Shown here: positions 16,446 to 49,974 of the stretch, piece by piece | Numbering within the stretch: position 1 is the stretch's first letter | How the letters are laid out: each line of letters starts with the position of its first letter | NCBI GenBank assembly: GCA_040954595.2 | Contig: CM082595.2 | Location: 7,856,317-7,920,316, forward strand | DNA length: 64,000 bases | Source: Balanoglossus misakiensis | Taxonomy: Eukaryota > Animalia > Hemichordata | Reading direction: 5' to 3' | Notes under the pieces: model-generated | Told to the model about the DNA's origin: nothing | The model's input: only the letters and a program-made list of their open reading frames with translations | Databases searched by the model: none | Translations under genes and position numbers: made by a program

Positions 16446-17343
16446 TTTGAACTTTAACCTTTTAACTTTAAGCGTTGGTGTTGTTGATGTGATGCGACGC
16501 GTTTCATCGTGTTTTGGATATTCTTCGCTCAGAAATATCGTATCACGTAAGTTTTTAGTGTTTTAACTTCTCTGATTTCGCATGGCGGGATAAATCAGGT
16601 GAATATAGGGAGGTCGGTACGGTGACCATAGCAAACGATCTTGTCCCGACGGCATGATCACGGGCCCGGCACTTGCTAGCTGCATAACCGTAGCGCGAGG
16701 TTTTGGCTGGGTTTGTGCATGTGGGTGGGTTGGCGTCCAACCCACAAGCCCAGGCAAAACCTCGAGCTACGGTACTGCAGCTACCCTACGAGTACATTTC
16801 GAGATTGTCCAGCTAGCGCCTCACAACTCCGCATCAAAACAGGTACGTTCAAAGAATGTTGACAGAAATGCGGGTCGGTTGAACAAACCAAACAATACCC
16901 TAAAGCTTGTGGCATATTAACTGCCTCGTAATTCATGCAAAATGCCCAAACTAGAAGTCATTTGCAGTGTCCTCAATGACCACTGAGTGACATCGACAGC
17001 AGCTTGAGTGACTTGTCTTTAGCTGAGTCAGGGTGTCGCTACGAGTATGGCCAGTAATTATTAGCTATACGTATCGCCCTATCCAAGTTTCAGTTACAAT
17101 TTAAGTTTTATGTAAGAGTGTTTTGTTTTGGCGCGATTGTGAATGTGACCGCCATAGAGCGCCGTAGAGAGCACCAGATCCGAGCAGTCCCTATGACATG
17201 TGGCAAACCAGGCAAAACCTTGAGTAGCTCTGCCATGCATTTACATTTGTCATTGCTGTTTACCTGGGTCTAAAAATAATTATGGAAAGAATCATTTTTA
17301 ATATTCTTTTTATATCCTGTACAGGTGTTAAGATAGTATCACT

Positions 17344-20300: not shown

Positions 20301-23300
20301 GTGTAGTTAAGTATTTAAAAATTTCAGATTTGTAATTTTTAGCTCTCATTTTCCATTATTTAGGGTGACAAGAGCTTATGTGATAAAACAGCGTCTGTCT
20401 GTGTGGCTTTCTTACTGTTTGGCTGGCTGTATGTATGTATGTATGTACCTGTATGTATGTATGTAGCAAGTAACTGCAAAAACTCGAGAACCGTTGATAT
20501 CTTCATATTTGGTGTAGAGATTCATAATGAATGATTAGCAATCAATAACTCAGAAATTGTTGGTTTTGATGAATTCATATTTTATTTATAGTTATTTAAG
20601 GAAAAGCCTATAATACACATTTCTTCATTTTGAATTTATCTATATTTTTAAAAATGTTTGTCCGAAATTTTACTTCTTGTTCTATACCTTTGAAATTTTG
20701 TTTGCAGATTTTTAGGGAAATGCTTTGGAATTCTTCGAATGTTCTCATTTTCATTACTAGATGAGAGACATGTGATACCATCTTAAGCTTTCCTTTCCGA
20801 TATTTTTTGTCCTTTGACCCTTCTAACTCAAAACTTCATCCTTAAAGTGCATGTTATATCAACAGTTCGTGCTTGTTTTTTCAGGGCCCAAATTGGGTTT
20901 GGCATATGGATGGGTATGATAAATTGATGGGCTTCAGAAAGTCTGAATATCCATTTGCTATACATGGGTGTATTGATGGATTCTCTCGGAAAATTATTTG
21001 GCTGAGGGTGTACAGCACAAATAACAACCCACATGTTATTGGAAAATACTACTATGATGCTGTGTCTGAAAATTTATGTAAGTCATTTTATGTTTAGTAA
21101 TTTATGTGTCAGGTTGTAAAGTTCTCTTCGAAAGTCAAAGGCTTAAATTTTTTGTCAAATTTTGTTCAAGGCAACTACAGATTATTCTCTTTTACATTGT
21201 AATTAATATTGAGAATAATAATTGTTCACCGTGCAAAATTCTGAATTAGAGGGCCATATTGTCTTACAGTTGACATTCAAAATGGCTGCCAATGTCTGAG
21301 TTAAACCATATGGAGAAATATTAAATAAACGGTTTTTATGAAAACAAGTTGGTGAACGCAATATGTTCTTCTTTCTTTTCAAAAATACTCACACAATTTA
21401 TTAAAGAATGGAAAGATATCATTATTCTGAAAATCTGTTCCTGAGTTGCGTACTACCTTAAAGCAACATGCAGACCTACCTCATATGATGCGTATGTTTT
21501 TTTCTCATAATAGGCTGTCGGCCTAAGGGATACACCATTAGATCTTGGGGGGGGGGGGGGTGGTCAGAAGTGAATAAAAAAATATGCGAAGAGAAAATCA
21601 CGAAAAAAAAATAAAAATCAGACCCATTAGCCCCCAAAAAATACAGAAACCATAAATGTGACAGAAAATAAATTTGCAAAATGCCACTTAAATCCGGTAT
21701 TTGATATTAAAGTGTGAGATTCTACCATCAAAGTATAATTTTTCGGCGCGACCTTCGGTCACATTCAGTAACTTTTAAACTTTTGATGTTTTTCACGCTA
21801 TTTTTGATCTGTAGAATAACCGCAGTTTCTTATTCTACTCATGTCTTTTTGATGTAGTGTGCCCATCTCGAACTCGTTCGGATCATGGAACTGAAATGGT
21901 GGAACTGGCTGAATCTCAAATGTTCCTTAGAAGAAATCACACAGATGTGTATGCCTTTGACAAAGCTCACAAGTATGGGTCTTCAACTTCTAACCAGGTA
22001 CACATGCCTAAACTGATTTATTTTGTTGCAATATTATCAAATATGGTCCCTGTTGCCAATTTGCCTTCAGTTTTCACTTCGACATGCCTGAGCAACTTTC
22101 ATCAAGATTTTGCACAATGACAATATACATATGCATGGAAGATCATGTTTCTTTATAAGATTCAATATTGCTTCCCGGTAAGCTCCCAAGTACATGCCTA
22201 GCAATAGACACGCTAGAACTGAATATGCTGCAGCTGGAACTTGGTGCAAACATAGTGTATTAAGTGTATACTGAGGCATGTACATGCAGACCAATTTCTT
22301 TCTTCACCACAACTATAGCTATAAGTTCTACACATCTGAATTGATTTTCTAAATCAGAGTGAACCACTGAAACAGAAGAATGGAAACGAAGTTGTAGAAT
22401 GAATAATGTAAATTATTGTATACTCAGTTGTTATTTGTGATGACGTTTGAAAAAAAAGCAGGACGTAGGTTTTTTGCGTAATGTTATTGATAAGTAAATT
22501 GTATATATGCTTTTGTCATTAAATCTATAGTGTATTGAAAGCTGGTGGGCTCAACTAAGAAAATCCAGTACACAGTACTGGAGAGAAGAATTTAAGGTTA
22601 GACAAATATGTGTTTAAAAATATGATGAATATTGGTTTTAAATAAGACCAAAATGATTGGCAGTTTGTTATAAATTTTTCACCTCCATAAAAGTTGGACT
22701 GGCCATCATTGTGTGTTGTCTGTCTGACCATCAGCTTTTTGCTTTTTCTCAGAAGTTTTTCCTGCTGTAAAAATGGATAGCAATATGACTGTAACTTGTG
22801 TAAGGTGGTGCTGTATCCGTCATCTGTGCACATATATACATATGTATGTGTGTGTGTGTGTGTTCAATACAAAAAATAAAGAACTGCTGCACATTTCCTC
22901 TGGGGATTTTGTTCAAATGAGAAGGCGTCATTAGTAAAAAAGAAATTTATTTGATGATTGGTAAACAATTCCTCCAGAATGTGTATAATGAGTGACAGCA
23001 TGAAATTAAGCAGCTCATTTGAAAAGTTTTAAGTTTGGCAAAAAATGTCATTAAAACTGCAGCACCCTGAATCAAACAGAACCATACTGTCTATAAATTG
23101 TCAGATGATGGGCTTTTGTCAATTCACCTTCGATTTTCCTTATTCAGACATTAAAAGACCAATCACTGTATGATTCAAGTAATCCAATAGATAGGTAAGA
23201 TGTAATTTTTCACACAAATCTGCATTTTATGTATTGAACAGTCATATTTATCATTTGCAATACAAAGTTAGGGTATCTCAACATATAAATTTGATGACTT

Positions 23301-24625
23301 GTATGATACACTTCATTCAATTTGTAGGCCTGATTTAAATTTTATAAATATAAAACAACCCTACTAGATAAACATGACAACAGTTGTAAAATGCGCATTC
23401 AGTTTTGGACTGCTGTGACTATTATAAATGCAAGCTCCAGTGTTATAATAGCATGTACATTTACTCTGCTATATGGCATATTATTTTTGAATTTATCTTC
23501 CTGTTCTCATCTTTCATTTTCAGAAAATGCCTCATGTATGTATACATGCCCCTTCTTCAACATGAATTGACAGAATTTGCTGATGAATGGAACTCGCATA
23601 GAATACGTGCACAGAAAAGGCAACAACGACCACATGGTATTCCTGAAGATTTATACAAGTTCCCAGAAGAGTTCGGTAAGTATAATGCTGTTTTGGAGGG
23701 CAAGATTTGTATGGATTTCTGAGATAAATTTCAACTATATCGGTGAATGTTAACTTTAACCTTATTAATTTATGTTTAGGAAATGTTTAATCCCACAGAT
23801 GGCCACTCAAATTGAATGTTTGAATTTAGTGTTCCTACATAATGTTTATGTATGCCATGACTTATGTTGAGATCCAAATTTATTGCTAAGTTGAAAAAAA
23901 AATCTCCATGAATGAAACTTGTTCTAAAGATATTAAAAGTTTGGCAAAGGAAATTTACAACCTGAATCATCTCCAGTTCAACAGAACAGTGGTATTCAAG
24001 ATACAACTCTTAACATTGTTATCTCGACTTTCCTTCATGTTTACTTACCTGTTGCAGTTTTGTGTAAATGGGTTAGTAGTATGAGGGATAACCGTAAATG
24101 TTTTCATTGCAGTTTGAAAGATGATGTTTTACTGATAACTGACAAATAAGTTGATACACATCTGTACTATCATAGTGGATTAGGTACAGTGGTATATGTA
24201 CCACATGACAAGATTCAGGGACATTACTACATCAACAATGTTATAGCATGGCCTTTGTTTCATTTGCTGTGCCACAAAATGTACATAAATAGCTTTGTAT
24301 CATAAAAGTGCCTTTTTTGCCATTCCAAATTTTAATGGCTAGTATCAGTATGTCAACAATGTAAAGTAAACCATGGGATATTCTTAACACTTTTCCTTTA
24401 ACTTACATTAACACAGATGCACAGGAGATGGGGTTTGTTGTGAACAGAAGAGATTTGGCAACATTGGCTGAACGAGGAGGCTATGATGAGCAGCTGCCTC
24501 ATTATCTGTCTCCGTCTTTTGTACAAGATTCAGAAAATGAAGTGTACAGCGTTTTTGATCACATTACTTTGAATAATGCCAAACAGGTGTACATTTACTT
24601 GAGGTACCTGTTTTCCCAACATTGA
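17344..24625 (+). CDS. IS3/integrase-family DDE transposase, 10 coding exons, 392 aa
   Basis: GT-AG exons 17344-17441, 18280-18367, 18741-18826, 20201-20300, 20885-21077, 21858-21997, 22531-22596, 23148-23194, 23524-23675 and 24417-24625 sum to 1179 bp in frame. N-terminal HTH/Clr5-like HGISWSLSTLKRRL; ELQGPGRLLGIKAM; catalytic GPNWVWHMDG(D), IHGCIDGFSRKIIWL, PSRTRSDHGTE(D), NQCIESWW(E); WNSHRIR; PHGIP. Confidence 0.88.
18413..18555. repeat. Hairpin repeat in transposase intron 2
   Basis: AGGTTAAAGCTCAATATAAC...GAGTCGAAGACGAG...GTGATATTGAGCTATAACCT inverted arms, with a loop resembling that of the 25590 family. Confidence 0.5.
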
Positions 24626-24865
24626 TGTCTGTATAAGGTGGGTTCATGCTACCTACATGATTTTAACACAACTGACCAAAAATCAGTGTGTTGTAGTAGT
24701 TGTGTTGGAGCTGAAAAGATGTAGGACAGTGAGAATTTTATCTGTAAATGACAAAAAGACAAACACTGCTGAATGGAGTAAGTCAATATTTAATACAGTT
24801 GTTTAGATGGCAGTGAAGGTTCTTAACTGAGAAAATGGAGTGAAATTGAGCATTCATAGTCTGCA

Positions 24866-27800
24866 TCAAGCGGGATCCTCCGACAACAGCACAGCATCAT
24901 CACCTTCGCTTGAAGACTTAAGTGTAACCTGCAGAATCACAACAACCATCATTAAAATCTATACTCCACAAAATATCACCCAAAACTTGTATTACAGTGT
25001 TGCCTCAGGCCATTTTTTTTGCTGTAAGCCATTCTGGCTAATCTGACTTAGCCAGATGATGTGCTAGCTGGCTCATGTTTTTGTATTTGCTCAGTTTTCT
25101 ATTCACAGATAAGAAAAAAAATATACTGTATATATACATACACACTTCCCCAGCCTATATGATAAGCTTCTATTGTCATGTGTATACAGCAAATGGAAGC
25201 TAAATTAGTTGAACAAAGGCACTTACCTCTGATAACGTATACTTGGCCAAAGATGGCGACATAACTTGTAGAGCTGGATAAAACAAAAAGTAAAATGTTC
25301 TCTGTATTTCCATGGTTCATGTAGACATTTCACCTTTTCATTAAATGTTATGTTATGAAAGGTAACTAGTTACTACATTACTGTTTTTTTTAACTTAAAC
25401 ATGCATACATACATACACTGATCCCACAAGGTCCCACTCGTATAATATGGAGCTAAAACTAACAGAATCATGTTGAAATTGTCAATTATTTTGAGAGGAA
25501 AAAAATATTTGCAAATTAATAATAATATCAATATCACAGAGCCAAGTGCTTTCTAAGGGTTCATTTGTATATTTGAATGAAGTATTTAAGCAATAATCCC
25601 CGCCGCAGGCGGGTATACACGAGATTTTGGTACAATTCGAGACATATAGCACGAGCCGTAAGGCGAGTGCTATATGGTAGCGAATTGTACCAAAATCTCG
25701 TGTATACCCGACTGAGGCGGGGGTTATTGCTATTATATTATATCAACAATTGATTTCTGTGGCATATCAGTGTCGTTTTCATAACGAAACAACGTCAGAA
25801 AGAAAAATTACGATCGTGAACCAACATGGCGACGATTAATGTAAACACGAGCGGCCCGAGATCGAGCATTCAACATGAAGCAGACGACAAAAAGTGACAA
25901 AAGTGAAAAATATTCAGAGCAGAGCAGTTCCAAAATAAAACGTCCGTAAATTCAAGTGTTTTTATGTTATTTATTTGGTTTAATCCCGTGCAACTGTGGT
26001 TTAACCACACATTTTCCCTGCTGCATGCTAGTTCAGGGGCAAGTTTTACCACTGCCAGCAATGGTAAAACAGTATTTCACCATCGCTCTCGTCCAATCAG
26101 AATCGCAGATGGTAGCATGATATAATATAATACAATTTAGGTGTATAATACCTCACCTGGTAATCTTATCATGTCACAGTATCGTGAACATATGTGCCCA
26201 TTGGCGAACGGAACAATTGCTTCTCTGGCGCAATTATCAACGCCAAACACCCTGTTGAATGCAATTTGTAGGTAAAAATTTGCTTTAAAAAATAAAAAAC
26301 AAGCGCCCTAGTGGCCAATAGAGATCCACTGTAATATTGACATAACATCATAGTTATACAGGAAACATTTGTTAAGAATTTTTGCATTAAAACTATCAAA
26401 GTTGACTCAGCTTTTTTATGGTGATTACTGTATAACCCCCCCCCCCAAAAAAAAAAGACACAATATCCTTACAGACCTAATTTTGTCAATTTAAAGGGGA
26501 AATCCGTCGTAGCTGATTTCTACATAATTTGGTAGCTTTGATGTCACTCTTTCAGAAAAAAACATATTCGCCATGTATAGGTCGCGCGATTTTTTACAAA
26601 ATCTAGGGAAAGTTGGCAAAATTTCCAATATGGCGTTTACTGTAATTTGAATCATGGGAAATAGTCAATGTACATTGTAAGTTACTGTAAATAAAAAAAT
26701 GTTAATTTTTTATTTAAAATTGCTTGTACTTACATTGCGTTTTCGTTGTTGTCAAGTAGCGACCAACTTGCTGGAGCTACATCAGTCAGTCGGTAACCAA
26801 CTCCTACATTGTCAAAAATACAAGGTTCAAAGAGTTGGCAGGTATTAAATTCTACATACATTTACTACATAATATGTTGCATGGCCAAATAAATTAATAC
26901 CCCAGCCATTTAAATAAAGAAGGAAATTGAAGTCGTTCATGAATGTCTTTGTGCCAAATTTGGATGGAAAAGCTATTAATAGTTAACACCTAAATAACAA
27001 TTCTGCCCTAAAATGACCTATATATTTGGTTGAGGGATTCTTGGGATATCAACTAAGAACGCATTAATATGAAATGGGCTAATAATTAACATGTCCACCA
27101 AAATTTCATTCTACCGGTATAAGGGTAATATTATAGTATAATTAAACTGTTTGAAAGTTATGTCCAATTTGTTCAAAATCACAGTGTTGCATTTTAGCCA
27201 TACACAGTCACAAGTATTTCAAATGGTATGCTAAACAAAATGAATTATTATGAAAACCCACCTTGAAGGTCTGTGATGAGGAATCTGTTGTCAAATTTGT
27301 TCATCACCCAGTGTGCGAATGTGCTCAATTTTTCTCTTATCTCCATGTCACCACCCAACATGGCACCCATGTTGTTCATATATTTAATATATGGTCCAGG
27401 CAAAAATTCTTCCAAAGTAAAGTACTTCTCTCCTGCTTTAAGCAGGTAACAAGGGATAATGCTAGAAAATACAAGTAAAAAATAAGCAGTTTTAAAAATC
27501 ATTTTGCTTGAATAATGTGAAGAAATAGAAAATTTATGTGAAAGAATTATTACCAATGACTTCCATGTGTGAACATGGAGTATGGATTCCACGAAAACAT
27601 GCGTGAAAGTATTAAAAGTCTGGCAATTTTGTTTTGATACCTCATATGAAGTCAAGTGCATCTTTGAAAATTGGGGGAGGGAAGCAGTACATGTGGGCCT
27701 TCGAAATAACGAACATGGTTTACATTGTTAGGTGCAATGAGTATGAGTGTATAATATGGCATTACAAATGAGCTGATGTGATGCAGTCTCACAAAGTTGT

Positions 27801-30800
27801 TTCAACCTTTTAATTGGACAATTTCTTATAGTCACCTCACTAGTACTGAAATGGGTGCATGAATACTGAAATCCAAAAATTAACCTAATGAGATGAGATG
27901 ATTCAGATTGAATCAGAAATGTGATCTTACTCTGGTGTCTGACCAAATTCTGCTGGAACTGTTCTTGCGAATATTTTACTTAACATATTGCCCAACATCT
28001 GGCCTTGCACTTCCTGAAATGATAACAGAGGCTGTGATTATCATGTCTTCATGATTCATCAAGTATATGAGTAAAGGTGGTCATAACATGTTTATGGCAT
28101 ATTTTCTTTTGCAACCCTCCAGAATTCTACATCAGTCATAACACCAAGGCCAACTTATTATATATTGTGCAGTAACTTATCCTAGTAACAATGGTGCAGC
28201 CAACCACAAACAGATTTTCCCCATTTTAAGAGTGGTAAATTAGTTTGTTGATCAATAGTAGTTGCAATCACAAGTTGTACAATATTCACCAAATACTGAT
28301 AATATCAAAACTGACACAAACAAATGTGATCACTAGACCACTAGTGTGAGATCAAGATGCATAACCACTGAATTTTTCTTGGTAATAGTCTAGGGAACAC
28401 AAATTTACAAAGTACTGCACTTTGAGAGAAATATTAATTGTAATTGTAATTTTTATTAGTATTAATCGTGATGACAAAAGGAATCTAAAATAGCTAGAAG
28501 TTTATATTATAAAACACTTTCAACAGGCACTAATTCATCTCATTTGCATATCACCAGTGAAAAATACCAGTTTTATGTTTTTGCTTGCAACAAAGGTGCA
28601 ATCATAAGTACATTATGCAATAATAATAATAATAATAATGAAAATCATCATTATCATCATGGACTGACCCGTTTCGCTATGATGTACTGCACCTCTTGGA
28701 TAGTTTTTCCAAGTTTCTGATAAAAACCGCTATGTACAGCCTCCACAGCAGAGTCCAGATGTTCCTTCAGCACGTACGTCTTTTTTTCTTGCACACCCAA
28801 GTACGTTGATGTAATAATATAGCATTTGTATGCAGATCTCATCCCACCTACACCAATTCTTTGGTCACATTTTCTGAATACAATTTTGTACTCTTCAGTG
28901 TCCCACTGGCTCTGACCATTTTCGTCATACATGTACACATACAAATTGGCATTTTCACAAGGACCTGTAAACAAGATAAAATATTGGTGATATGCAGTGC
29001 ATCAGAAGGTGTAATCTCATAGGTTACAACTTTTACGCACCTGTTGCATAATATTGCAGATTGGTCTAACACAGAAATATACAGAAATAAACCAATCACA
29101 TTCAATCTTGCGAGACTACTGCAGGTAAGTATCAATTAGATTTTGTGAAAATAATTAAGCTGATCAGACCACATGCTTTAAATCCTTAGATTGTTTGTTC
29201 AATCCTATTAAGTGCGTATCCATGAGCTCTAGCTCACTCATAGACATAGCATGAATAGAGAATAATTGTTGGTAAAACATATCTGCAATCGTTCGAACTT
29301 TTAATATGTGTGAAATTTCAAATAAATCATGCCATTTCTATCCTTTTATCTGCTTTTGCTGGCTGAAGTTTTCAGACACAGACCTGTAAAATGTATGAAT
29401 AAGTTTCGAAAGGGGGCATAAGAGATATGGTAATTCTGACAACAAATGTAAAAAAGGGAGGTGGGCAAGGCTGATGTGTCATATGTGTCTCCCAACAGAT
29501 CAATTTATCCAATAGACATATTTTCTCCAACAATAAATCATGCAATTTATCTAAAGTCTGGTCTTCCTGAACCTACAATAATTTGAATCATGGGAAAAAG
29601 TGCCAAACTTTCCAATTTTTGGCACATGATTAAAGTAGAAACCATGTGTATGGAAAGAAAAAGTATTCTATGACAAACAATGAATCATTGTCAAACAACC
29701 CATTCCTACTACAAAGTGTACGGCTTAATATTGGTACACCTGATATATACAATTTAGAGCATGTCAGAGTAATGGTCCAGGTACCATCATGTGTAGGGTG
29801 TGGACTTACACACAGAAAGACAGATGGGCATTATAGGACAGTCACAGGACTATACCATGTCTGCAGTGACTGAAAATGCTATGAACAGATAATAAAACTT
29901 ATGTAAATTGTCTCTGAGCATATTAAAATTATAGAATATTACAGAATAAATATTCTGATGAGTGAAATAAAATCTAATCACAAATACACTTAAACAAACA
30001 CTAACAAATGTCACACACCCTGCAGGTCAAACACACAGACCAAAATGGTTAGCAAGAACCACGCTTCTTAGATTACAATTTAGTGGAAATAGTATAGAAA
30101 CTTACCAGCTTCAAGGGCTGGTATAGCCTTCCCATGACCAAATCTCATGATGGTTGTTAGACCAACTTTTTGTTAATTAAATTGGGAAAAGAAAAGCAGA
30201 AGCAATGAGTTTTGTTGAAAGTAGGGACTGAATTCACAATGTCAAGAGTGCTAACTGGCATAGTGGTTACCTTTTACATTGAATAACACAAAAAAAGAAC
30301 AAACTAAATTTTTATTTTATGCAGAAATTGAATAAATTCCTAACATAGAACAACCCTCATGTCAAACAGTCAAATTTTTATGCATGTTGAAAACACTTGT
30401 ACTCTTTAAAAAATCTGTCATGAACACATGACAAAAGCTGACAAAATCAGGGCAGATTTTATCATATATGTCTCCAATGGGAGCAGTCAGCAACAGGAAG
30501 ACATTTTCATCAAGTATTTGAATCATGGGAAAAAGTGCCAAACTTGTGCCAAAATGGTGCTTTTCACTTTATTCAAGTGACAGTAGGTGAAATGTCTGGT
30601 TGGTGAAAATGACTTATAGGCTAACCAAACCCATACGAGATATGTACATTACAAAATCAGTCTTGTCAATAATATGCTAATCTCAAACAATAGTTAAGAA
30701 ATGATAGCATTTGGGCACAGTAAATCTATTTCTGTAGCACATGTGCTAAGACATTGAAGGAGTATGCATTCACAAATATACAACAATTCTCAGGTAAACA

Positions 30801-33800
30801 ATCATTTCTCAGTCGACATTTATAAAATACTAGACTATTTTACCAATGTTTCCATTGTATACTTTAAATCCGGCCAGCAGCACACTATCTCAAACACTTA
30901 ACAAATACAATGCAATTGAATTCAATTTATACATTATTACTTTGAATTTCTCTAGTTACACAGGCAGAAGTATTTTACAAAGTTTAAACTTACTTGTGGA
31001 CTTGGGGATACAAGCTTGTTTGACTTCCTGTATTTTGAAAAATAAAAAGGGAATTACATGTTACTGTTGACAGCATGGGGACAATAACATCAATGACACT
31101 ACAGCTCCTATAGCCAGCACAAATTATGCATGAGTTCTCAATACAAATGCACATTGAATGTTGGACACACATATACTGTTTATGTCACTACCAAAGTATT
31201 ATTGATAAATTAGCAAAACTAACTGTTGCTTTTGTTATGCACTTAAATTGCTGATTTAAACACAAGCCCAAACAGACTGACACATCTCAAGATACATGCA
31301 TTCAAAAGACATGACTTAGGGAAAACAAACCTTTGTTGTGATACATAAGAGGCATGTCAGTGATTGTCAAGAACCTGTATACCAACTTTCAAGCTTGACT
31401 GACAGGCTGTTCTGGTGAAGATAATTTGTTTACCAAACAAAATAATGCAGAGGCCAGTATCAATCTATCAAATTTGCCTGAGTAGAACTTAGGAAAAAGA
31501 GACTGTTTGTACCAATCATCTAAAATAGCTTTAACGACATTGCACTCCAGCTTGTATGTAAATAATTTACACACATGACTGACATATGTTGTTCTCATAT
31601 TAGTAAATCCACAACAAGCGTCACTCAACCAGAAAGTCTACTTTTTTAAAGGTATAAGTCATCTGTAGCCACAGATACCACAGAAATGAAACCACAGATA
31701 TCTTATGACAAAAACCTGCAAAAATTGTCCCCAAAATACAATATTGCAGTTTTCATGAGAGTTGTCACACATTTGACTTCGATCATCCCTAGTGACCTGA
31801 ATACTGAATATAAAAGTTGTATAAACAGTGGATTCTGAGAAGAAGTCAATTGTTGACAGTTGGACGGACAGACAATAGACAATCCACCTATCTGTTAGGC
31901 TCCACATCACTGACGACAAAGCTAATAGAAGGCAGTTTACCATTATTTATATTTATGGTCCATTTTCTGTTCAAAATGGGAACCATGCAAAAGATACAGA
32001 CAACACACAATGAAATGATTGTATACAAACCAAAGTATGCTTTTGCATAGTATCTGCACGTGCATGATGTGGTGCTGACAATGTCTTCTTTTTTTCATTC
32101 TTTTGTACAAGTTGTGCCAGCTCTGATAGAGCAGAGGATGCTACAAAAGATTAAATGACATTATGAAATATCAGACATGCTCAATTTATAAATTAAGAGA
32201 CAATGTCATTGTAACAGTACTTGGCTTCAGTAGAAAAATCATATTATTACATAGTTATATCTTTAACTTTTAATTTTCAACACCTGTTGTTCTTGCACAG
32301 TATTAAGTAAAACAACAATGACAACATGTGTGATTGCCAAATGATCTTAATTAATATGCCAGAATCATGATTCCTGACCTCAAACTGAACAACCTGATAT
32401 TTATATACCGTAACGTTCAACTTCCTCACTATGATTAAATAGTCCAGAACAATGGAATATTTGTTTCATTGCTGCCCTATGCACCACCTCAAACAAATGT
32501 TTGTTTGTTTGTTTGTTTTGTTGTTTTTATTGGGGGGTTACTACCACGCCAACGAAAAAACATAACAATTATTGCACAATCACCACATAATATTTATTAT
32601 AGACATTTATTATTTCTTAAGAAAAAGGCCTATTCTGGAGAACTCACCACTGATTCTTGACGACTTGCTGGAAAGTACACTGTATAAATTTGATGAGAAA
32701 AAAAGAAAGTCAACAATATACATAAAAGTCAGTTATGGCCCTGAAAGTGTCACAAGACAAATTTGATATTATAAAAATCTCCTTTGTAATGGGGTTATAC
32801 GATTGCTTGAAACAAAACACATAAAGCCCCTAGGAATATACTTTGCAAACACCTACTTACACATTCATTCACTAATTATTTTCATTGAGTATACTGGTAC
32901 ATACATGTGATATACCAGTAGGGGTACAAGTGGCTTGCTGAAAAATTATTTTACATTTCATTTCAAGCTATGTATGAGTCACAAGTATAATATATCTAGT
33001 CTTATTTCATACCAAAGTGAACAATGATATTTAACTACTGCCTACATAAGAAAAGTGGCCATCAATATATAAAATCTTAGGAACAGCTACAATAATCAGA
33101 CTCCAGTAGCACATGTGTGTAGATGTTAATCGTGTAAATTTATAGTACAGTTGCAAATTCCATCATTAGATCATATTGTTAAATAAAATGATGTGTGTAT
33201 GTACATCTAAGTACATAATCCTTGTACCAAGTTTTAATGAAATCATGATCAGTCAAGGCATGGCTAAGTAATGGCTTTGGAAAGACAGAGGTATAGACGG
33301 GTGGTGCCCAATCCATACGTCTCCATGGACTACGACTGTGGGGACTTACATGTACAAATCAAACTTGGATCACCACTAAGGTCCTGAGTATCAAATGTAT
33401 GAGCACTTAAATTTCTAAAAGAAATCATTTATACATAAAAATGACAAGATTTCAAATTTCAAAGCAATCACACAAGCTGTTTTGACCAAAAAAAGCAAAA
33501 AATAACCCCCAAAAATACAAATTTGAAGATTTTGATCACAATTATATATACCAACTTATATCAAAGCTGCAGATCAGTGGGTTCTGATAAGTGTACACCA
33601 CCAATAAACATGTCTGCCGATTTCAAATGCAGCTGAAGTCAACATTTTCAAGCAGTTAACTCATAGAAGTTCTTCGTGTCAATATTACCTGAAAATACTC
33701 TTTGACTGTTCAACTTCATGTGGTTGAGAATGAGATGGACCAGCGCAACTGTCTTCATCCATGGAAAGCTCCTATATACAAGAAACAAGGATATGCAACT

Positions 33801-36800
33801 TCAAACAATATCAAACATTACTTAAATAACCCAAGCAACCTTCATGGCTAAAGACCGGTTAGAGATATGAACATAATTATGTGGAACAATAAGACTGTCC
33901 GTGGAGACACAATTCATCAGTAAGCTAAAAGATAAATGTGGACATAATTTTAAAAATTCAGCAAAATGATGGAAAGCTGCATTGAACATATGATTTCCAT
34001 ATTTTTCTGACATCCTTTACACAAACATGTCAAAGCAACCAACCTTAGATGTCCTCGAACCAGTATGCTAAATGCAAAAAAAATGCCAATGGTATTGGAG
34101 CCCAGCTGATCAGTATTGTGCCATACTGACTCATATCAAACAAGCACCAGGTCTCCAACTATTATGGTTGCTGACATATGTAAAAGTAGTTGAAAGGTCA
34201 CCCCAAAATTTGGAAGAAAAAAATTTGGTCCAATATTGACACACATCAACTGAAAATCAAGTCTCCGTGTATTATAGATGCCGAGATATGCACGAATCAA
34301 AAAAGCAAAAAAAAAATTATTACCCCCCTGAGAAGAAGAAAAAAACATTGTTGGGGAAATTTTGAAGCCATAAAAGGCTTCTTTTTGCTCCAAAAAGGGA
34401 GAAATGATGTAAAAAAACTGAACAGATCCTCCATGACCCTGAATTGAACTCTGGTGAAAATTGTATCTGTGTGAAGTGGTTTTTGAGTTATCATCCATAC
34501 AAGGATTTTATATCAGCAGTGGCATTATGTCCCCATACCTTTGCAGGAATTTGGGGGCATACCGTAATAAAGCCAATACTGAAATCATGTAATTTATATT
34601 ACTGGGTTTTAGTTTATGACAACTTTTAATCTTTGGAAATATGTGGCTAATGTTTACAAATAATGACTTAATTGTTTTACTCACAGGAAAGTAGAAACAA
34701 AATGAGCTTCTTGTCATAACATGCTGATCCTCTTTGTATTCTGGACCAGTGGTTCCACCCATTACTTTTGCTTTCCTTATATTTGTTGGATTGACTCGAA
34801 TCTTGAAAAATTCAAGACAAGCTACCTTGATGTTCAGTAGCGATAAAGGTCTATTAAAAGGAACCTGGGAAAGTAAGCCACAGCACAGCAATTAGATATA
34901 AATTAAAAATGTGCTACAGTAAGTCATGAGAAATGACACAATTGTAAAACAAATATCTTAATGACACTGACTGATCCTTTTAGCTAACACTGCTAAACAT
35001 ACACAGGTGTTAATTTAATTCTGGTCATCCGTTCCTGACATATCGTGCCAAAAGTCAAACAGTCACACAATACAATAAAATACAATGTTTAAGCAATAAA
35101 ACACCCCCAGCCATGGTATATCACGAGATTTTGACCAGTTCACGACATATACGCACGAGCGATAGCGAGTGCGTATATGGAGTTGAACTGGTCAAAATCG
35201 AGTGGTATACCATGGCTGGGGGTGTTTTATTGCTATTATATTATGCCAGTATATTGAAACTTTGCATAAAACATTTTAAAAAGGCATTTTCTTTAACTAT
35301 GATATATGACTGTGGTATATGGCTAATATATCACGGTCACGTGTCGTGTCTCGACCAATCAAATAGCGTGATTTACACCATCAATATACTGGTATAATAT
35401 AATTACATTTTTATCATAATTTTTAGATGGAATAAAAATATTACTCCTAGGACCCTGAAAATCAAATTGCGAAGAGCAATCAGAATAATGATTTCTGACC
35501 AAAAATTTAAAAAAATTGCCCTCCAAAATATAATATTGGTATTTTCCCCATAATATTACACATCATACTGATTTCTGCGAACAATTTTTTTTTGACATAC
35601 ATACATACATACATAGAGACAACAGATGTAGACTTATCCAATAAAATATCAATGGTACATGTACATACACGAAATGGGAGCTAAAAATGAAATAATCCGT
35701 TGCTTACCAATTGCTTTAAAACATTATCAGCTTTGCGATATCTTCTTCCATCAAATTCAAGTTTCGTTATGGTAAGATTCTGAGGGAAATGTAAGAAGTA
35801 CATAACCGGTTGATAATAATGTATTTTACCAAATGGAGGATATATGATTTTTGCTATGGAAGTCACTTGGTTTGAACACACACTCTGACAACATAACCTA
35901 GCCACTGAAATAAATGGACAAAACCACTCAGCCATGCGTTTCAAACCCAAAACAGTGGCATGGTCACACTGACTGTGTCAGAAGTTACAACTCTGAACGT
36001 GATCCAATGACAGTGTGTCGACAAAGCAAGCACACAAAGACAAAAATACTATACAAACAAACTCGGTAAATAGTACCTTAAAGCTTTTAACGAGCTTTTG
36101 CCTGTATTTATAATTTCTCTGTAATTCTATGATATAGTCCTACTCACTGGCACTGGATCAAACAAATCATTTGCAACGTATATCATTATTGGTTCTAGGA
36201 ATTAAACAAATGAACTAGTAATTTATACAGTTCTGCTGTGATATTTAGTGCATAGTAACTGTAAGTCAAATATCAAGGCTAATGATTTTTTTTTTATTCA
36301 GAGGATCAACAAGAGCAAATTCATAATAACAGGCTCTGCTATGTTGTTTGAGAGCATTTGGCCTAAATTACAAACTTTAAATCTTCTCGAAATTACAAAT
36401 TACTTTTTTGCCACTATAAACCAAAGTCAATATGGTGCCAAGTTTGAACATACTGTACCTGTGGACATCTCTTCCCTTTTGCCGGTTTTCTCATTTCAAT
36501 TTGTTTTTTTCGTATTTTCTCCCACTGTCCTGTAAGTCATAAGTTGCCATGGAAACTAATTAACAATATTTATATCCTACTCAAGTACATTTGCAACTTT
36601 GTATTTCACTGACAAAAAAACTGCTAAATGCAGATCAGTGCGATCATATCACTGTGTCCACGGAAAAGAAGCTTTGTTTATCAAAAACAGCAAAAATTAT
36701 CACAAAATAGCATATTGCAGATTCATCACAAATTGAGCAACCTGAATTTTCTATATTTTATCATCCCTAGGGACCTGCATAACAAGTAAGAAATGTGTGA

Positions 36801-37707
36801 ACAGAGGTATTAAAGAAGAAGTCAATGTAAGAGTTGTAGGACGACAGATGACGATGGACAATCCATGTAAAAGCTAGCCCAAAGTCACTGGCAGCAGAGA
36901 TAATAAATGTCATACCTTCGTAACTGTCTTCACTTTCCATGCCTAAAAAAACAACATACATTATTAAACACCTATTGCTGCAATAACCTACATTTCGTAT
37001 GCTGATCTATCATACAATACAATTGTACATTGCTGTACAGTACACAGAGTCTAAATAAGGCTGACATGTTCAAGTGAGTGCAAAATGTTAGAGGTGAGTG
37101 ATGCCACTCCTATGCTATATGACAGGTCAAACCCATAGGTCAACAAACATAGTTTTATTAAAACGACCTGGTAGGGTGTGTGCAGAGTACCAATCATTTG
37201 AAATTGATTGGTTGCTGCAAAGCAAAAGACGTGGACTTATATGCCATATGGAACATTCCTTTCTCAGTGGGTAAGGTATTTGATTCAAAGAATTGGAATT
37301 AGAAGTGGGTCTAAGTTTCAAGAGTAATGGATATAGCTTAACTCATTGCAGCAGCTTCATCCTACCCTACAATACCTGAGTACACTCACCTCATGGAGAT
37401 TCATGATTACTCTATAGTGATGCTATGTCTCACATATCAAGGTGGTAATACAATACAGTTTAACAGTTTGTACTCTAAATGATCATATTTTTGTTGGTGT
37501 AACTTTTTGTGCACCAAAAGTACATTGAGAAAATATTGTGCAATGGTATGTATACCTCTTAGGACATAAAATATTCAGGCACTGATTTAGAAAACACAAT
37601 CATATGTCAGTTCAAATTTTTACTGCTCAAACACAGTGTTTATGATCAATATGTAATGCAGTTTTATATCATTACTTACCTTTACGCTTTTCTTTCGCTT
37701 TAGGCAT
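24866..37707 (-). CDS. Alpha-kinase (eEF2K/MHCK/TRPM7-kinase family) domain protein, 17 coding exons, 508 aa
   Basis: Minus-strand GT-AG exons 37707-37680, 36942-36916, 36194-36148, 35779-35708, 34864-34685, 33771-33689, 32679-32648, 32140-32031, 31027-30994, 30165-30106, 28964-28669, 28013-27931, 27461-27262, 26803-26734, 26251-26157, 25273-25227 and 24928-24866 sum to 1527 bp in frame. Motifs IGVGGMRSAY, YVLKEH, EVQGQ, TLEEFLPGPYIKYMNNMG, STFAHW, LITDLQGVGYRLTD, FGVDNC, HICSRYC. The kinase-domain exons are secure; the small 5' exons are less so. Confidence 0.85.
25590..26131. mobile_element. Hairpin-ended non-autonomous repeat in a kinase intron
   Basis: 140-bp stem-loop at 25590-25730 (GCAATAATCCCCGCC...CACGAGCCGTAAGGCGAGTG...GGCGGGGTTATTGC) plus a body ending CCAATCAGAATCGC...ATATAATATAATA. 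Confidence 0.75.
35092..35402. mobile_element. Hairpin-ended non-autonomous repeat in a kinase intron
   Basis: Near-perfect stem-loop at 35092-35234 (AGCAATAAAACACCCCCAGCCATGGTATA ... TATACCATGGCTGGGGGTGTTTTATTGCT), body ending CCAATCA...TATAATATAAT. Confidence 0.75.
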
Positions 37708-38325
37708 GATACAGGTCTGTATGGGATGAGGTAATAATTAAAAAAATGTATCAGTATTTGACACTTATGGTTGCTTTAAAGTTTAATATGTGGCTGGTAT
37801 AATCAGAACAGTGCTGTTTACTGACCTTAAGTATTCAATTAACACATGTAATTTTTTACTATAACAGTTAAAGTAAACAAATATTTCAACTTCTACATAA
37901 TTACAATGCAGTACATAAAACATTATAATTTTGTTGTTGTTGTTGTTTTTTTTGTTTGTTTTTTTTTGGGGGGGGGGGGGGGGTAGAAGCAATGACCAAC
38001 TGGTCAATTGGTCAGAAATGAAAAAAAATGTGGAGGTCATAGGCTTTTACATACCGGGTAGGTTGGTGTGTAGTTCCTACCAAATCATATATGTGAGATA
38101 ATGTAACAATGTTCTTTTGCCATTGCTGAACTACAATTGTATTTTGATGAGTACCACTTAAAAGGGGAATTATGGGAACATTGTTTACTTGACCAAACAT
38201 CGCACTCTCCTGTACTGCAGGGACTGTATGTGTTGGTCCCACTATCCCCCCTTGAATTCCAATGTTTATCTGGCATCTGTTTACACAGGCCCAAATACTT
38301 GCCATCTAATGAATATGTACACTAA

Positions 38326-38560
38326 CATCAAATTGCCATATATGCAGTCGAAAATGGAAACGCAAATGCAGTTCGATATTTCAACAAACGTCTAGAAAAG
38401 CTCATCAACGAAAGCACTATTCTTGGCATGGAAAAAAAGGACACTGCGAACGTTATCAGCAGAGAAAATCGCGCACCCACTAGGGCAAAATCTCGACAGG
38501 CAAGTCGAATCATATATAAAACAATTCCGACTAAGGCCAAAAGTCGTGTGATTAGCTTCG
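38326..38560 (+). pseudogene. Fragment of a pogo-like transposase N-terminal HTH (Brinker-DBD-like)
   Basis: Translation HQIAIYAVENGNANAVRYFNKRLEKLINESTILGMEKK...YKTIPTKAKSR resembles the YAxENGNxxAxRxF...ESTV motif of pogo-type transposases. Preceded by an in-frame stop; no DDE region follows. Confidence 0.55.
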
Positions 38561-38968
38561 CGTCCACAGGACGTTCTATACGTAACGGACGCGGACGCGC
38601 ATTTCATTTTCAGTATCACACAGTCTTGGAGCAAGACTACCATTGCAGCTGCAGGACAATCCACATTTACACGGCTACTACGCTACGTACTACTGTAGTA
38701 CTACATACTATTACTATACTAGGATGCGCCAAGTTGCGAGCAAGTTCATATCAGTCGCCGTCGGGACAAAATCTACAGACAAAGCCTTCCATAACGATGG
38801 TTTAAAATGACGGTAGGTGGGATGTTTTACCCCCGGTCAAGAGCAATCAATGAGAGATAATAAAACAGTAAAACCTTACGCGTACGATATTTCTGAGCGA
38901 AAACTCTCACGATGAACACGGTATCGAGTACGATGACAGCATATGCATATCCATGCAGCAGCGATGGC

Positions 38969-39699
38969 TATTTGCATAAAGACTTTTTTGATTGGTCCAC
39001 AGATATCACGTGATAGCTACAACGGTCAGAGTTCAAAGGTTGAAAAATCGAAATCGAAATCAAAATCAAAATCGAAATCGAAATCAAAATCGAAATCAAA
39101 ATCAAAATCAAAATCGAAATCGAAATCAAAATCGAAATCGAAATCAAAATTCAGATCGTTTTTCATTTCGTAAATCAAAATCGAAATCAAAATCAAAATC
39201 AAAATCAAAATCAAAATCGAAATTCAGATCGTTTTTCATTTCGTAAATCAAAATCGAAATCGAAATCAAAATTCAGATCGTTTTTCATTTCGTAAATCAA
39301 AATCAAAATCGAAATCAAAATCAAAATCGAAATCAAAATCAAAATTTAGATCGTTTTTCATTTCGTAAATCGAAATCGAAATCAAAATTTAGATCGTTTT
39401 TTATTTCGTAAATCAAAATCGAAATGGAAATCAAAATCAAAATCTAGATCGTTTTTCATTTCGTAAATGGAAATCAAAATCAAAATTTAGATCGTTTTTT
39501 ATTTCGTAAATCAAAATCGAAATGGAAATCAAAGTTAAAGTTAAAATTAAATTTAAAATTAAACAGAAATAAAAAGTTAAAAACAAAGTTAAAGAAAAAT
39601 TCAAGCTAAGATTTTAAGTATAAACTCAAAAACGAACAAGAAGTAAAAAAAAAAGTCACAAATAGTATTCTTGTTTCATGAGCCTTCTCGGTTGCCGTA
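38969..39699 (-). repeat. Right terminal inverted repeat
   Basis: Reverse complement of 14247-14980, with 7 AGATCGTTTT modules and an extra ~30 bp near 39600-39630. Confidence 0.92.
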
Positions 39700-42600
39700 G
39701 TACACCTCGCTCGTCTAACGGCTCGTGCTATTTATCGTGAATTGTACCCAAATTGTACCCCCCTTTCGAATATGCCAGTAAGCTATATCGTTGCATTGTT
39801 ACGTTATGTAGCCATTACTCAAACATGCTTGAATTGATTCCATTTCAACATAAAGGACTATTCAAATATGCTGCACATTTACAGACATTTTAAATAATTG
39901 CATTCACATCGAGTATGAGTGCAGTGTACTATATATGATGTACGTACACGTATGCTCTACACGATCTCTAACTTTCAATAGAAACATTTTCAGAGCCAAA
40001 TGTCTTACATGTTATTTCCTTCTTCGATATTTTCTTTCACTGTTGCCCATATTGATAAATCAATACTATGCCGATTTGCCGATGGCGATGACTTGTTTGA
40101 TCTATAATGATATCGCATTTAATTCTGCAAATGTTGTTATTTAAAAATGATATCTATCTTTCTGAAATTTAAATAAACAAAGTAGTATGTAAAATATTAA
40201 CATTTGCGTATTTGTTAGGATACCTACACATAATCAAAATCGTGACATGAAAAATGACGATCATTCTATAGTTAGTGTATTAATTGAAACTACAATAAAC
40301 GAACTAACCATTGTAAATTTATCACAGGAATATATGGTTATGGCAAAATAACCTGATGCATGTAAAACAGACAAATAACCTTACATTTAAACTAATTGGC
40401 CATAAGTTCAAAACGTCATGATATTGACACAATAACTTTATACACATCGGGAATACATACTTGATTCGTCATTATGAGATTCATGCACAATCGTTTTGAG
40501 ATACGATACACGTGCAACTATGACGTCACTTTACATTAGGGTAACTTAGAGATCAATGTGATCTATTTTTTTATAATTTACATTACATGTATGTGTGTAT
40601 ACCTTCTGTAAACAAAGGTGCCGCAAAGCGCTTCAAGAATCCAATGCTAAGTTTAGGTAGCTTGTACATGCATGTGCTACGGTGTTAGCAAAACATTTTA
40701 CCATGGAGCGTCATTCTTCATTTGAATGAAAGCAATTTTCAGCCTTTGGTAAACACACAAACGCGCACTGAACTTGCAAAATATCTAAGAGGAAACTGCT
40801 CATTGCCTGCTGCCTTTCTGCAGATTATTGTCTACACTACTTGAAAGGCCAACATTAGCATCACGAGTCATGAAGTATAGCAACAGCGGATTTGATGGTT
40901 TGTGGTGTAAATATTCGGAAGGTGGTTTTCATGCCGCTATAACACGCGTGTATTCTAATTCAATTCCATGACCATGCGAAGTCGAAATTAATAGCATCGA
41001 GCCGTACGTGCATAAAAGGTCAGATTCTCGTGATACGAATTGTGCAGATAAATGGTGAATCTATCGATGCATTACCAACTTAATCAAGATAATACACGTA
41101 CCTACATGAGCACAACGGTGTAATTCTTTTGTTGGACAAACGTGTTTGGCAGCAGTGGCGTCTATCCTAAACGACGCCATAAGGTATTTTACTTTGGAAT
41201 GTCTTATTTTTCCAACACGTAACATTAAACGCTTCTGACTTAAAGCATTTCGTGGGATTACCCCACCTCATCATACGACATGAGTGTTAAAAGCGAATGT
41301 CTTAAACATAACGAAATACAAAACCTTACGATATACATATCAGCACGAGATTGTTTTGAAATACAATACAATGTTGACATTACCTCCATACACTGTAGCA
41401 GGTATGTACACAGTAAAGGTTAGCTACGACGTTCATCAATATCGCGAGACATCTGCCAATGACGTTAACTCTTCATTGCGGCGCTGAATATCCCCGAAGT
41501 GAAGGAGAAGCTAAATTCTCTCTGATATCACGTCCGTTTCATCAGTTATGGATTTGGAATCGCAGCATGTCTCCTCTGGTTCGGCTTCACTGATCGTGTC
41601 TCTCGGCTCCCCGATGAAATAACACAATTTCACCCAGTAACTCTCGACTACATACGGTGGCACTCTCAATTCGGCCGAGTTGCCATAACGACATGGCTTT
41701 AAAATACCCGGATGGTCTTTTTCTGTTTTTCTTATGACGCTTTTACGTCCAACAGCATAGGCCCTGGGGAATTGTAATGGTATGTTTACGGAATAGAACT
41801 GTGTCAGCTGAGCGATTGGTATCGTCGGTATCGACTTGATGTCCATTATATGATGTATAACAGACTGTTACTAAATATTGTCACAAAACATAAAATATGA
41901 AATAATATAGTGATGTCTATGGTCGTCCAACGCTGCCGCTGATAAAATACTGGTTATTTGTTGTTGTAAGTGAAATATTGAAAAAAAATATACGAACTAA
42001 ATTAAAATGATTAAACTTAAAACACAAAAAGGAATAAAAAAAAAACTAAGTGAAAGCATATTACATTTCAAACATAAAAATATAATAAAATTGAAAAATA
42101 ATTTAAAACAAAATCAAATCAAATCAAATTAAATTTAAATTTTAAAAACTTGAAATAAAAATTACACTTGAAAAAAAAACTTTCTTTCGGGCCTATCCCA
42201 TATACCATAATGCAGTGCGACATGCAGTTGCCTTGTGCGTGCGAGCCGGCGTCGTACTTCCATGTAAATAGATCTTGCCTGTATATGGGGGCTAGGATGA
42301 ACCGGCAACGGACACGTGGCGGTAAAACTTTCATCGACATTTTGGATTTCATCCCCTAGATCGACGAATCCCACACCACGCGGCAGGACAACTGGTAGGC
42401 GTACGGTTAGGTAAAATGGGTAGTGGGGCCCCGGAGGGCGGGCAGGTCCTACTTGGCTATCATCGATTTAGAGGTCCTCGTGAACTGAATCACCGTCCCA
42501 GCACCACTGTGATCTCGTGTAGGCTGCAATATGGTACCTGGAAAGTTGGGCGAGGACAAACTGAATGGAGTGTAGCCAGCTTTAGGGAGATGCTGGGCAC

Positions 42601-49915: not shown

Positions 49916-49974
49916 CTCGAGCCTGTTTGTTTTTCTGAATTTTATTGTATACTAGGAGATAAAGCACAATACAG

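What the first reader, a model, noticed from the sequence alone, without database searches (positions are those of the whole stretch)
24866..37707. Transposon-borne alpha-kinase keeps catalytic and zinc residues, with a variant Gly-rich loop and an unknown N-terminal domain
Seen in the spliced model: P-loop GVGGMR, Lys in YVLKE, Glu in EVQ, the KYMNN loop, catalytic DLQG and LTD, and zinc ligands in FAHW and HICSRYC. The usual LTDP is LTDV and the GxGxxG-type loop reads GVDNCAR. The N-terminal ~220 aa hold a folded-looking block (VPFNRPLSLLNIKVACLEFF...GGTTGPEY) followed by a Ser-rich linker. It shows none of the SEL1, WD40, channel or Ig domains of characterised alpha-kinases. Seventeen phase-compatible exons over 12.8 kb suggest selection. 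Activity and substrate are inference only.
Basis: partly seen in the sequence, partly recalled or inferred. Interest (0 to 1): 0.8.

Follow-up and report, generated by a model that had tools for sequence, protein, structure and literature searches.

The report
Animal transposon's ubiquitin-fold alpha-kinase partner
An intact 25-kb IS3EU-type jumping gene carries, facing its transposase, a predicted 17-exon gene for an alpha-type protein kinase whose front end is predicted to fold like ubiquitin; distant relatives keep the same pairing, so the kinase is likely a working part of the transposon, though its target is untested.

Summary
Observation confirmed; 'unknown domain' and 'odd variant' are largely explained. 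The 17-exon model (516 aa, all GT-AG, no stop) lies tail-to-tail with an intact 10-exon DDE transposase in a 25,453-bp element with TACGG..CCGTA ends and a 6-bp target duplication: an IS3EU transposon. One exon alone passes Pfam Alpha_kinase; catalytic and zinc residues map onto TRPM7. LTDV and FGxDNxxR are shared with acorn-worm (Saccoglossus) kinases, so they mark a subfamily, not decay. The N-terminal block is a conserved ~85-aa domain predicted (on the Saccoglossus homolog, pLDDT 90) to be a ubiquitin-like beta-grasp. In metagenome loci the same kinase sits tail-to-tail with the transposase in 20 of 20 loci with 3 kb of flank, co-diverges with it (rho 0.84) and is under purifying selection. 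Co-folding a relative's pair gave weak support only (0.35, controls 0.00). The IS3EU plus alpha-kinase pairing is in print for fungi, and this scan noted it before in fungi and one invertebrate; the animal ubiquitin-fold architecture was not found in print. No RNA tested the splicing.

The parts
14247..39699 (.). Whole IS3EU-type DNA transposon, 25,453 bp, termini TACGG..CCGTA
14241..14246 (.). Left target-site duplication GTACAC
39700..39705 (.). Right target-site duplication GTACAC
14247..14985 (+). Left terminal inverted repeat (outer 45 bp identical to the right arm; inner part holds a hexamer array)
38965..39699 (-). Right terminal inverted repeat (about 80% identical to the left over 785 columns)
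17344..24625 (+). Predicted transposase gene, 10 coding exons (17344-17441, 18280-18367, 18741-18826, 20201-20300, 20885-21077, 21858-21997, 22531-22596, 23148-23194, 23524-23675, 24417-24625), 392 aa, no stop; D133, D197, E238 likely DDE triad
   Evidence: exons 5 and 9 each pass Pfam rva_4 PF24764; intron after the STSNQ motif shared with 7 related loci shown; motif positions
24866..37707 (-). Predicted alpha-kinase gene, 17 coding exons, 516 aa, converging on the transposase (stops 240 bp apart)
36459..37707 (-). Exons 1-3 (37707-37680, 36942-36916, 36529-36459): residues 1-42, 33% Lys+Arg; exon 3 matches the W-x-K basic helix that opens family members; possible nuclear-import or DNA-contact segment (inferred)
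34685..35779 (-). Exons 4-5 (35779-35708, 34864-34685): residues 43-126, conserved domain predicted to be a ubiquitin-like beta-grasp
30994..33771 (-). Exons 6-9 (33771-33689, 32679-32648, 32140-32031, 31027-30994): residues 127-212, Ser-rich (20% Ser) poorly conserved linker; exon choice least certain
30106..30165 (-). Exon 10: conserved segment just before the kinase core (family motif of the type S-L-S-V-x-D-M-x-K-L-G); lies where TRPM7 has its dimer-exchange segment, homology not shown
26157..28964 (-). Exons 11-15 (28964-28669, 28013-27931, 27461-27262, 26803-26734, 26251-26157): alpha-kinase core with K299, E332, E376, K385, H409, D423, Q425, T432, D433, N455, H468, C470, C474
24866..25273 (-). 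Exons 16-17 (25273-25227, 24928-24866): acidic Ser-rich tail
16360..16676 (+). Internal copy of the right-end inner region (hexamer array plus about 250 bp) upstream of the transposase; matches 38748-39109 upstream of the kinase; likely shared promoter and non-coding first exon (inferred)
   Evidence: local score 88 against shuffle maximum 37 of 200
25585..25741 (.). Palindromic miniature element in kinase intron 15, related to the element's own target site
35088..35244 (.). Second palindromic miniature element, in kinase intron 4

Best explanation
This is the second gene of an intact IS3EU DNA transposon, predicted to encode a basic helix, a ubiquitin-like domain, a Ser-rich linker and a likely active TRPM7-type alpha-kinase, which most likely works as the transposase's partner: it would bind the transposase or its DNA complex and phosphorylate it to license or time transposition. 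Shown: element anatomy, open frames, residue conservation, constant tail-to-tail linkage, co-divergence, purifying selection in relatives. Predicted: the beta-grasp fold. Inferred: expression from twin promoters inside each end, nuclear location, catalytic activity, contact with the transposase and the substrate.
For: Element ends, TSD and opposite gene orientation match the printed IS3EU description. 20 of 20 related loci with at least 3 kb downstream, 31 of 35 with 2 kb and 36 of 47 with 1 kb hold an rva_4-type transposase on the opposite strand; 0 of 21 with at least 1 kb upstream hold one there. L047 is a complete 4,777-bp element with the same two genes, TATGG..CCATA ends and a 6-bp TSD. 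Kinase and transposase identities track each other over 16 distinct pairs (Spearman 0.84, Mantel p 0.0002), which shows joint inheritance. dN/dS for L006/L011: N-terminal domain 0.02, kinase 0.07, linker 0.24, transposase 0.10 (dS near saturation, rough). Lys, hinge Glu, second Lys, catalytic Asp, Gln, second Asp, loop Asn and first Zn His are invariant in 18 of 18 other members, the three C-terminal Zn ligands in 17 of 18; they map to TRPM7 K1646, E1718, K1727, D1765, Q1767, D1775, N1795, H1751 (alignments; roles from PMC2831825, PMC5318989). Both genes are preceded by homologous upstream DNA, and in L047 both start just inside the TIR. Co-folding the transposase of L061 with the kinase of L060 (same family, 99.7% identical DNA) scored 0.35 against a best control of 0.00; runs share at least 37% of contacts, partner pLDDT at least 61; this is a weak pass (at 0.60 or under: 5 of 78 solved complexes and all 4 passing mismatches of 180).
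Against: No experiment and no transcript. Joint inheritance fits any role that benefits the element, including action on host proteins. The co-fold pass is of the kind that is more often wrong than right unless likely beforehand, was run on a relative only about 25% identical to this kinase, and gave no interface. The 18 compact-type relatives all lack the helix-C Glu and the Thr before the second Asp, the latter needed for TRPM7 activity (PMC5318989), so catalysis may differ across the family. Some IS3EU/GingerRoot papers do not mention a kinase, so the kinase may not be needed by all members.
Confidence: 0.45

Rival explanations
1. The kinase is a counter-silencing effector: it acts on host chromatin or silencing proteins (histones, piRNA or methylation machinery), with the ubiquitin-like domain docking on a host factor, and does not touch the transposase.
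For: Same linkage and selection evidence. Fungal IS3EU also carry TET/JBP genes proposed to counter methylation silencing (PMC12730594, passages). TRPM7 kinase phosphorylates histones in vitro (PMC5318989, passage). Beta-grasp domains are common host-protein docking modules (general knowledge).
Against: The weak co-fold pass with the transposase (0.35 against 0.00) leans the other way. No host partner was tested.
Confidence: 0.33
2. The protein helps transposition as a scaffold or nucleotide-sensing partner, and phosphotransfer is weak or dispensable.
For: The GxA/GxxG loop has lost its last Gly in the whole family and its third position is Asp here; Pro of TDP is Val; compact-type relatives lack the helix-C Glu and the Thr. 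The N-terminal domain shows the lowest dN/dS.
Against: All phosphotransfer residues are invariant across 22 sequences only 20-30% identical to the window's kinase where covered; this copy keeps both the Glu and the Thr.
Confidence: 0.14
3. The kinase is a passively captured host gene or neutral cargo that this copy has not yet lost.
For: It has 16 introns like a host gene, whereas compact relatives have an intronless kinase. GingerRoot elements carry captured gene fragments (PMC6839031, passage).
Against: Fixed position and orientation in 20 of 20 informative loci, co-divergence with the transposase, low dN/dS; the transposase has also gained introns here (9 against about 3 in compact relatives); the 4 loci with 2 kb flank and no transposase all have broken kinase frames.
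Confidence: 0.08

Closest known systems
IS3EU (IS3EU/GingerRoot) DNA transposons, especially fungal families with transposase plus alpha-kinase (Kojima 2025, PMC12730594; Kojima and Bao 2023, PMC10045372)
   Same: TAYGG..CCRTA ends, 6-bp TSD, long TIRs, DDE transposase, alpha-kinase in opposite orientation.
   Different: Animal-type host, 25 kb with 25 introns, no TET/JBP gene seen between the two genes, kinase led by a basic helix and a predicted ubiquitin-like domain that the paper does not describe.
Saccoglossus kowalevskii LOC102800630, XP_077870366.1, XP_077863452.1 (labelled uncharacterized, TRPM7-like, vwkA-like)
   Same: 37-49% identity, same N-terminal domain (P0002), same LTDV and FGxDNxxR signatures, model ends that fall at this gene's exon junctions; one clade with support 0.98.
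   Different: Partial models; their genomic context could not be read, so that they lie in IS3EU elements is inferred.
TRPM7 alpha-kinase domain (PDB 1IA9)
   Same: Nearest solved structure by sequence (E 3e-16 for P0002, 9e-35 for the family profile); same catalytic and zinc residues; Ser-rich region before the core.
   Different: No channel; TDP is TDV; GPANLG is GVDNCA; similarity to the dimer-exchange segment not shown; ubiquitin-like domain instead.
Ubiquitin-like beta-grasp domains (FERM F1, PB1, RA, CIDE-N, USP7 UBL, ubiquitin)
   Same: Predicted fold; nearly all of the 50 best VIA rows are such domains, Z 5.8-7.0, rmsd 2.4-4.0, 65-74 aligned.
   Different: 0-17% identity, no Pfam or PDB sequence match, no subfamily stands out, no terminal di-Gly.

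Membership tests
IS3EU transposon | TA..TA termini (TAYGG..CCRTA) | tested here: met
   TACGG..CCGTA; definition
IS3EU transposon | 6-bp target-site duplication | tested here: met
   GTACAC both sides
IS3EU transposon | Terminal inverted repeats longer than 30 bp | tested here: met
   about 740 bp, outer 45 bp identical
IS3EU transposon | IS3/IS481-related DDE transposase | tested here: met
   Pfam rva_4 above cut-off for two exons, weak rve hit; intact model
IS3EU transposon | Second gene (alpha-kinase) in opposite orientation | tested here: met
   printed for fungi
IS3EU transposon | Transposase groups with curated Repbase IS3EU/GingerRoot proteins in a tree | not tested
   curated sequences were not fetched
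IS3EU transposon | Multiple copies or recent mobility in the host genome | not testable with these tools
   no genome held
Alpha-kinase (PF02816) | Pfam score above the curated cut-off | tested here: met
   exon 13 alone 47.6 bits against 21.3
Alpha-kinase (PF02816) | ATP-binding Lys, catalytic Asp-x-Gln, second Asp, loop Asn | tested here: met
   K299, D423, Q425, D433, N455, mapped on 1IA9
Alpha-kinase (PF02816) | His-His-Cys-Cys zinc site | tested here: met
   H409, H468, C470, C474
Alpha-kinase (PF02816) | C-terminal GxA/GxxG motif | tested here: inconclusive
   first Gly and the Asn kept, third position Asp, last Gly replaced by Ala; last Gly also absent in all other family members; motif described in PMC2831825
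Alpha-kinase (PF02816) | Protein kinase activity | not testable with these tools
   needs an assay
TRPM6/7 channel-kinase | Fused TRP channel domain | tested here: not met
   516-aa model and full-length relatives of 406-470 aa show only PF02816 above cut-off
TRPM6/7 channel-kinase | Dimer-exchange segment before the core | tested here: inconclusive
   a conserved segment sits there but HMMER alignments to 1IA9 start at its residue 50-51
Ubiquitin-like beta-grasp domain | beta-beta-alpha-beta-beta topology superposing on ubiquitin-fold chains | tested here: met
   model of the Saccoglossus homolog (39 of 84 window residues identical), pLDDT 90, pTM 0.80; VIA Z up to 7.0; Foldseek best E 0.015, ubiquitin; Atlas neighbours USP7 UBL, RA, Crinkler, under its bar
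Ubiquitin-like beta-grasp domain | Assignment to a named subfamily (PB1, RA, CIDE-N, UBL) | tested here: inconclusive
   top rows tied within 1 Z unit; no sequence match
Conjugatable ubiquitin-like modifier | C-terminal di-Gly after the last strand | tested here: not met
   absent in the window and in the 23-row alignment

The most novel reading that the evidence does not exclude
Animal IS3EU elements are two-component transposons whose second protein, a ubiquitin-fold alpha-kinase made from a twin promoter at the other end, docks on the transposase and switches it by phosphorylation: a eukaryotic transposon that encodes its own kinase switch, with the acorn-worm subfamily's TDV and GxDNxxR loop tuned to its own transposase.
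Probability: 0.35. Interest if true: 0.8.

Novelty: new variant of a known kind. Interest (0 to 1): 0.47.

Why it matters
IS3EU is widespread and barely studied, and nobody in the papers searched says what its second protein does. This locus and its relatives define that protein in animals (basic helix, ubiquitin-like domain, alpha-kinase), show it is inherited and selected with the transposase, and give a small two-gene system (4.8-kb compact relatives, intact frames) in which kinase control of transposition or counter-silencing can be tested directly. It also means many invertebrate genes labelled 'TRPM7-like' or 'myosin heavy chain kinase-like' are probably transposon genes.

Tried and rejected
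No genome is held for this window, so copy number and dN/dS among its own copies could not be measured. No RNA holder was listed for 27250-37200; this is no evidence on expression. Word-index protein search with exon 13 found nothing; the HMMER search did. Single-sequence fold of P0002 failed (pLDDT 30) and was not used. The N-terminal profile found no PDB sequence (best E 0.49) and no Pfam family; the Atlas feature search gave no usable hit for either query. Exon 11 and exon 5 alone hit no Pfam family. No relative was found in prokaryote genomes, viral contigs or plasmids. Homology of exon 10 to the TRPM7 exchange segment was not shown. The head-to-head arrangement in L060 was considered as a circular intermediate and rejected: it is a join of two parts of the L061 sequence that cuts off the transposase start and holds no element ends, most likely an assembly chimera; L060 and L044 were left out of the co-divergence test, L061 out of the tree. 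The L060/L061 dN/dS value (0.68) comes from a frameshifted ORF and was discarded. Two tree scripts failed on a pattern error; one search is the tree used (FastTree, 24 sequences, 258 columns). No Rfam match in the window. Earlier-findings look-ups by place, by sequence and by narrower words returned nothing. The Kojima 2019 review and Repbase could not be read.
Full report
Observation. Splice signals give 17 exons, 1551 nt, 516 aa, no internal stop and GT-AG at all 16 introns. Exon 13 alone passes Pfam Alpha_kinase (47.6 bits, cut-off 21.3, E 2.7e-12) and its best PDB sequence match is the TRPM7 kinase 1IA9. The closest proteins among 1.84 billion representatives (24 hits) are three Saccoglossus kowalevskii models; P0002 aligns over residues 44-443 at 37%. 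P0002 begins at the start of exon 4 and ends at the end of exon 14, and P0003 begins at the start of exon 12, which fits shared intron positions. By identity to these proteins exons 4, 5 and 10-15 are well supported, 3 and 16 weakly, and 1, 2, 6-9 and 17 not. Phase compatibility alone says little: 15-exon open chains could be built in 6 of 7 control stretches, though with scores of 44-70 against 98 for the model, and a chain scoring 130 exists on the real strand. No transcript could be laid on the gene.

The element. The gene lies in a 25,453-bp element, 14247-39699, with TACGG..CCGTA ends, a 6-bp duplication GTACAC and inverted repeats of about 740 bp whose outer 45 bp are identical. On the plus strand a 10-exon, 392-aa transposase model has no stop; two of its exons pass Pfam rva_4. 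The two genes converge, stops 240 bp apart. These are the printed features of IS3EU: TA..TA ends and 6-bp TSD (PMC10045372, passages), and TAYGG..CCRTA ends with transposase and alpha-kinase in opposite orientations in fungal TET+ families (PMC12730594, passages and section 4.1). IS3EU families were first recorded from zebrafish, Hydra, beetle, acorn worm and a fungus (PMC11934779, passage) and are said to encode two proteins (PMC8232023, PMC10853768, passages). The host of this window is unknown; its nearest named relatives are from an acorn worm. About 300 bp upstream of the transposase (16360-16676) is homologous to the DNA upstream of the kinase inside the right end (score 88 against a maximum of 37 in 200 shuffles), with what looks like a splice donor in both; in the compact relative L047 both genes start just inside the TIR. 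Twin promoters are inferred. The element sits in the middle of a palindromic miniature element whose relatives also lie in kinase introns 4 and 15.

The kinase. Using the 1IA9 alignments and residue roles from PMC2831825 and PMC5318989 (passages), K299, E376, K385, H409, D423, Q425, T432, D433 and N455 correspond to TRPM7 K1646, E1718, K1727, H1751, D1765, Q1767, T1774, D1775 and N1795; H468, C470 and C474 complete the zinc site. In a 22-sequence set the Lys, hinge Glu, second Lys, both Asp, Gln, loop Asn and first His are invariant in the 18 non-acorn-worm members. The Val after LTD is shared by 3 of 3 Saccoglossus proteins, and G-x-D-N-x-x-R by the 2 of 3 that reach it; 17 of 18 others have Pro and all 18 have G-N. 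The last Gly of TRPM7's GxAxxG is replaced in every member. So the variant is a subfamily signature (clade support 0.98) in the loop that contacts peptide substrate, and more likely changes specificity than kills the enzyme (inference). This copy is in fact closer to TRPM7 than the 18 others, which lack the helix-C Glu and the Thr. One Saccoglossus model (P0003) has lost both zinc Cys and may be decayed.

The N-terminal block. Residues 43-126 align with a domain present in full-length relatives from sea anemone (Actinostola) and unnamed assemblies and in 21 distinct locus sequences. It has no Pfam or PDB sequence match. AlphaFold2 on the Saccoglossus stretch with a 23-row alignment gave pLDDT 90, pTM 0.80. 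Nearly all of the 50 best VIA-align rows are ubiquitin-fold domains (FERM F1, PB1, RA, CIDE-N, USP7 UBL, ubiquitin), Z 5.8-7.0, none at 8 or more; Foldseek ranks ubiquitin first at E 0.015; the Atlas's independent model has USP7-UBL, RA and Crinkler neighbours, under its bar. The fold call is good, the subfamily is open, and a shared fold shows no function. Before it lies a Lys/Arg-rich segment, after it an 86-residue linker with 20% Ser.

Is the kinase part of the machine? A scan of metagenome contigs gave 99 relatives among 291 candidates; the best 80 were kept. A transposase like the window's lies downstream on the opposite strand in 20 of 20 loci with at least 3 kb of flank, 31 of 35 with 2 kb and 36 of 47 with 1 kb, and upstream in 0 of 21 with at least 1 kb. 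The loci are redundant: 23 had enough of both genes, 15 distinct at 90%, 16 with the window. The 4 misses at 2 kb all have broken kinase frames. L047 is a complete 4,777-bp element with TATGG..CCATA ends and a 6-bp TSD. Pairwise identities of kinase and transposase correlate (rho 0.84, Mantel p 0.0002), showing joint descent, not binding. The one informative intact pair, L006/L011, has dN/dS 0.02 for the N-terminal domain, 0.07 for the kinase, 0.24 for the linker and 0.10 for the transposase, with dS near saturation. Compact relatives have intronless kinases and about three transposase introns, one at the same place as here; this lineage is far more intron-rich in both genes. That these loci are animal host DNA is inferred from the named relatives; none was found in prokaryotes, viruses or plasmids.

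Mechanism. I put 0.45 on the kinase acting as the transposase's partner and modifier, 0.33 on action against host silencing, 0.14 on a mainly non-catalytic role and 0.08 on neutral cargo. Co-folding a relative's transposase (L061) and kinase (L060) scored 0.35 against a best control of 0.00, with at least 37% contact agreement and partner pLDDT at least 61; such a pass was reached at 0.60 or under by 5 of 78 solved complexes and by all 4 passing mismatches of 180, so it shifts the odds only a little, gave no interface, and was not run on this window's proteins. The kinase-to-transposase step, activity and nuclear location are inferred.

Novelty. The pairing of IS3EU and an alpha-kinase is in print as two sentences on fungi (PMC12730594; its Table S1 has no 'kinase'; its other supplementary data were not seen). 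Searches for alpha-kinase with transposon and transposase (2 papers), with transposon (32 papers, 29 listed), with ubiquitin-like domain and transpos- (0), IS3EU (62 papers, 40 listed) and GingerRoot (13) showed no description of the animal kinase or its ubiquitin-like domain; only listings were seen for most, and the GingerRoot paper has no 'kinase'. Repbase and the Kojima 2019 review, the likeliest places, could not be read. Earlier notes of this scan report the pairing in fungi and one invertebrate. Verdict: real, a new variant of a known kind; interest 0.47, up to 0.8 if the kinase proves to switch its own transposase.

Noticed in passing
window 48298-49951, minus strand: Three overlapping open frames; 48849-49691 has motifs that recall a tyrosine recombinase (recalled resemblance; no Pfam hit at E 0.01). 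Probably a decayed Crypton- or DIRS-like element.
   Followed up: partly
window 13816-14246 and 39706-39800; 25585-26132; 35088-35244: The element inserted at the centre of a palindromic miniature element; related copies lie in two kinase introns, and 13816-14245 matches 25686-26132 inverted at 69%. Possible target preference or long co-residence.
   Followed up: partly
window 14986-16360: 1.4 kb between the left TIR and the internal promoter-like copy; holds two short echoes of the terminal motif (15528, 16126) and no clear exon chain. May be a relic of end duplication or a lost third gene.
   Followed up: partly
window 10828-11182, 51779-52129, 53227-53573: Three copies of a roughly 350-bp palindromic repeat family, 73-80% identical.
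   Followed up: no
window 5660-6130 and 62103-62533: Simple and tandem repeat arrays (TACA-type microsatellite; 21-bp-unit-like array) giving spurious long ORFs.
   Followed up: no
L061 1608-2828 and L080 740-1954: Intronless transposases next to the kinase, unlike most relatives; either an intronless subfamily or contigs of spliced, overlapping convergent transcripts.
   Followed up: partly
L047 9643-14419: TIR of about 330 bp contains an inner copy of the terminal motif and runs up to the start of both genes.
   Followed up: partly
P0036-P0045 and loci: All 18 compact-type kinases lack the helix-C Glu and the Thr before the second Asp yet keep the other catalytic residues: a natural test of which alpha-kinase residues are needed.
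   Followed up: partly
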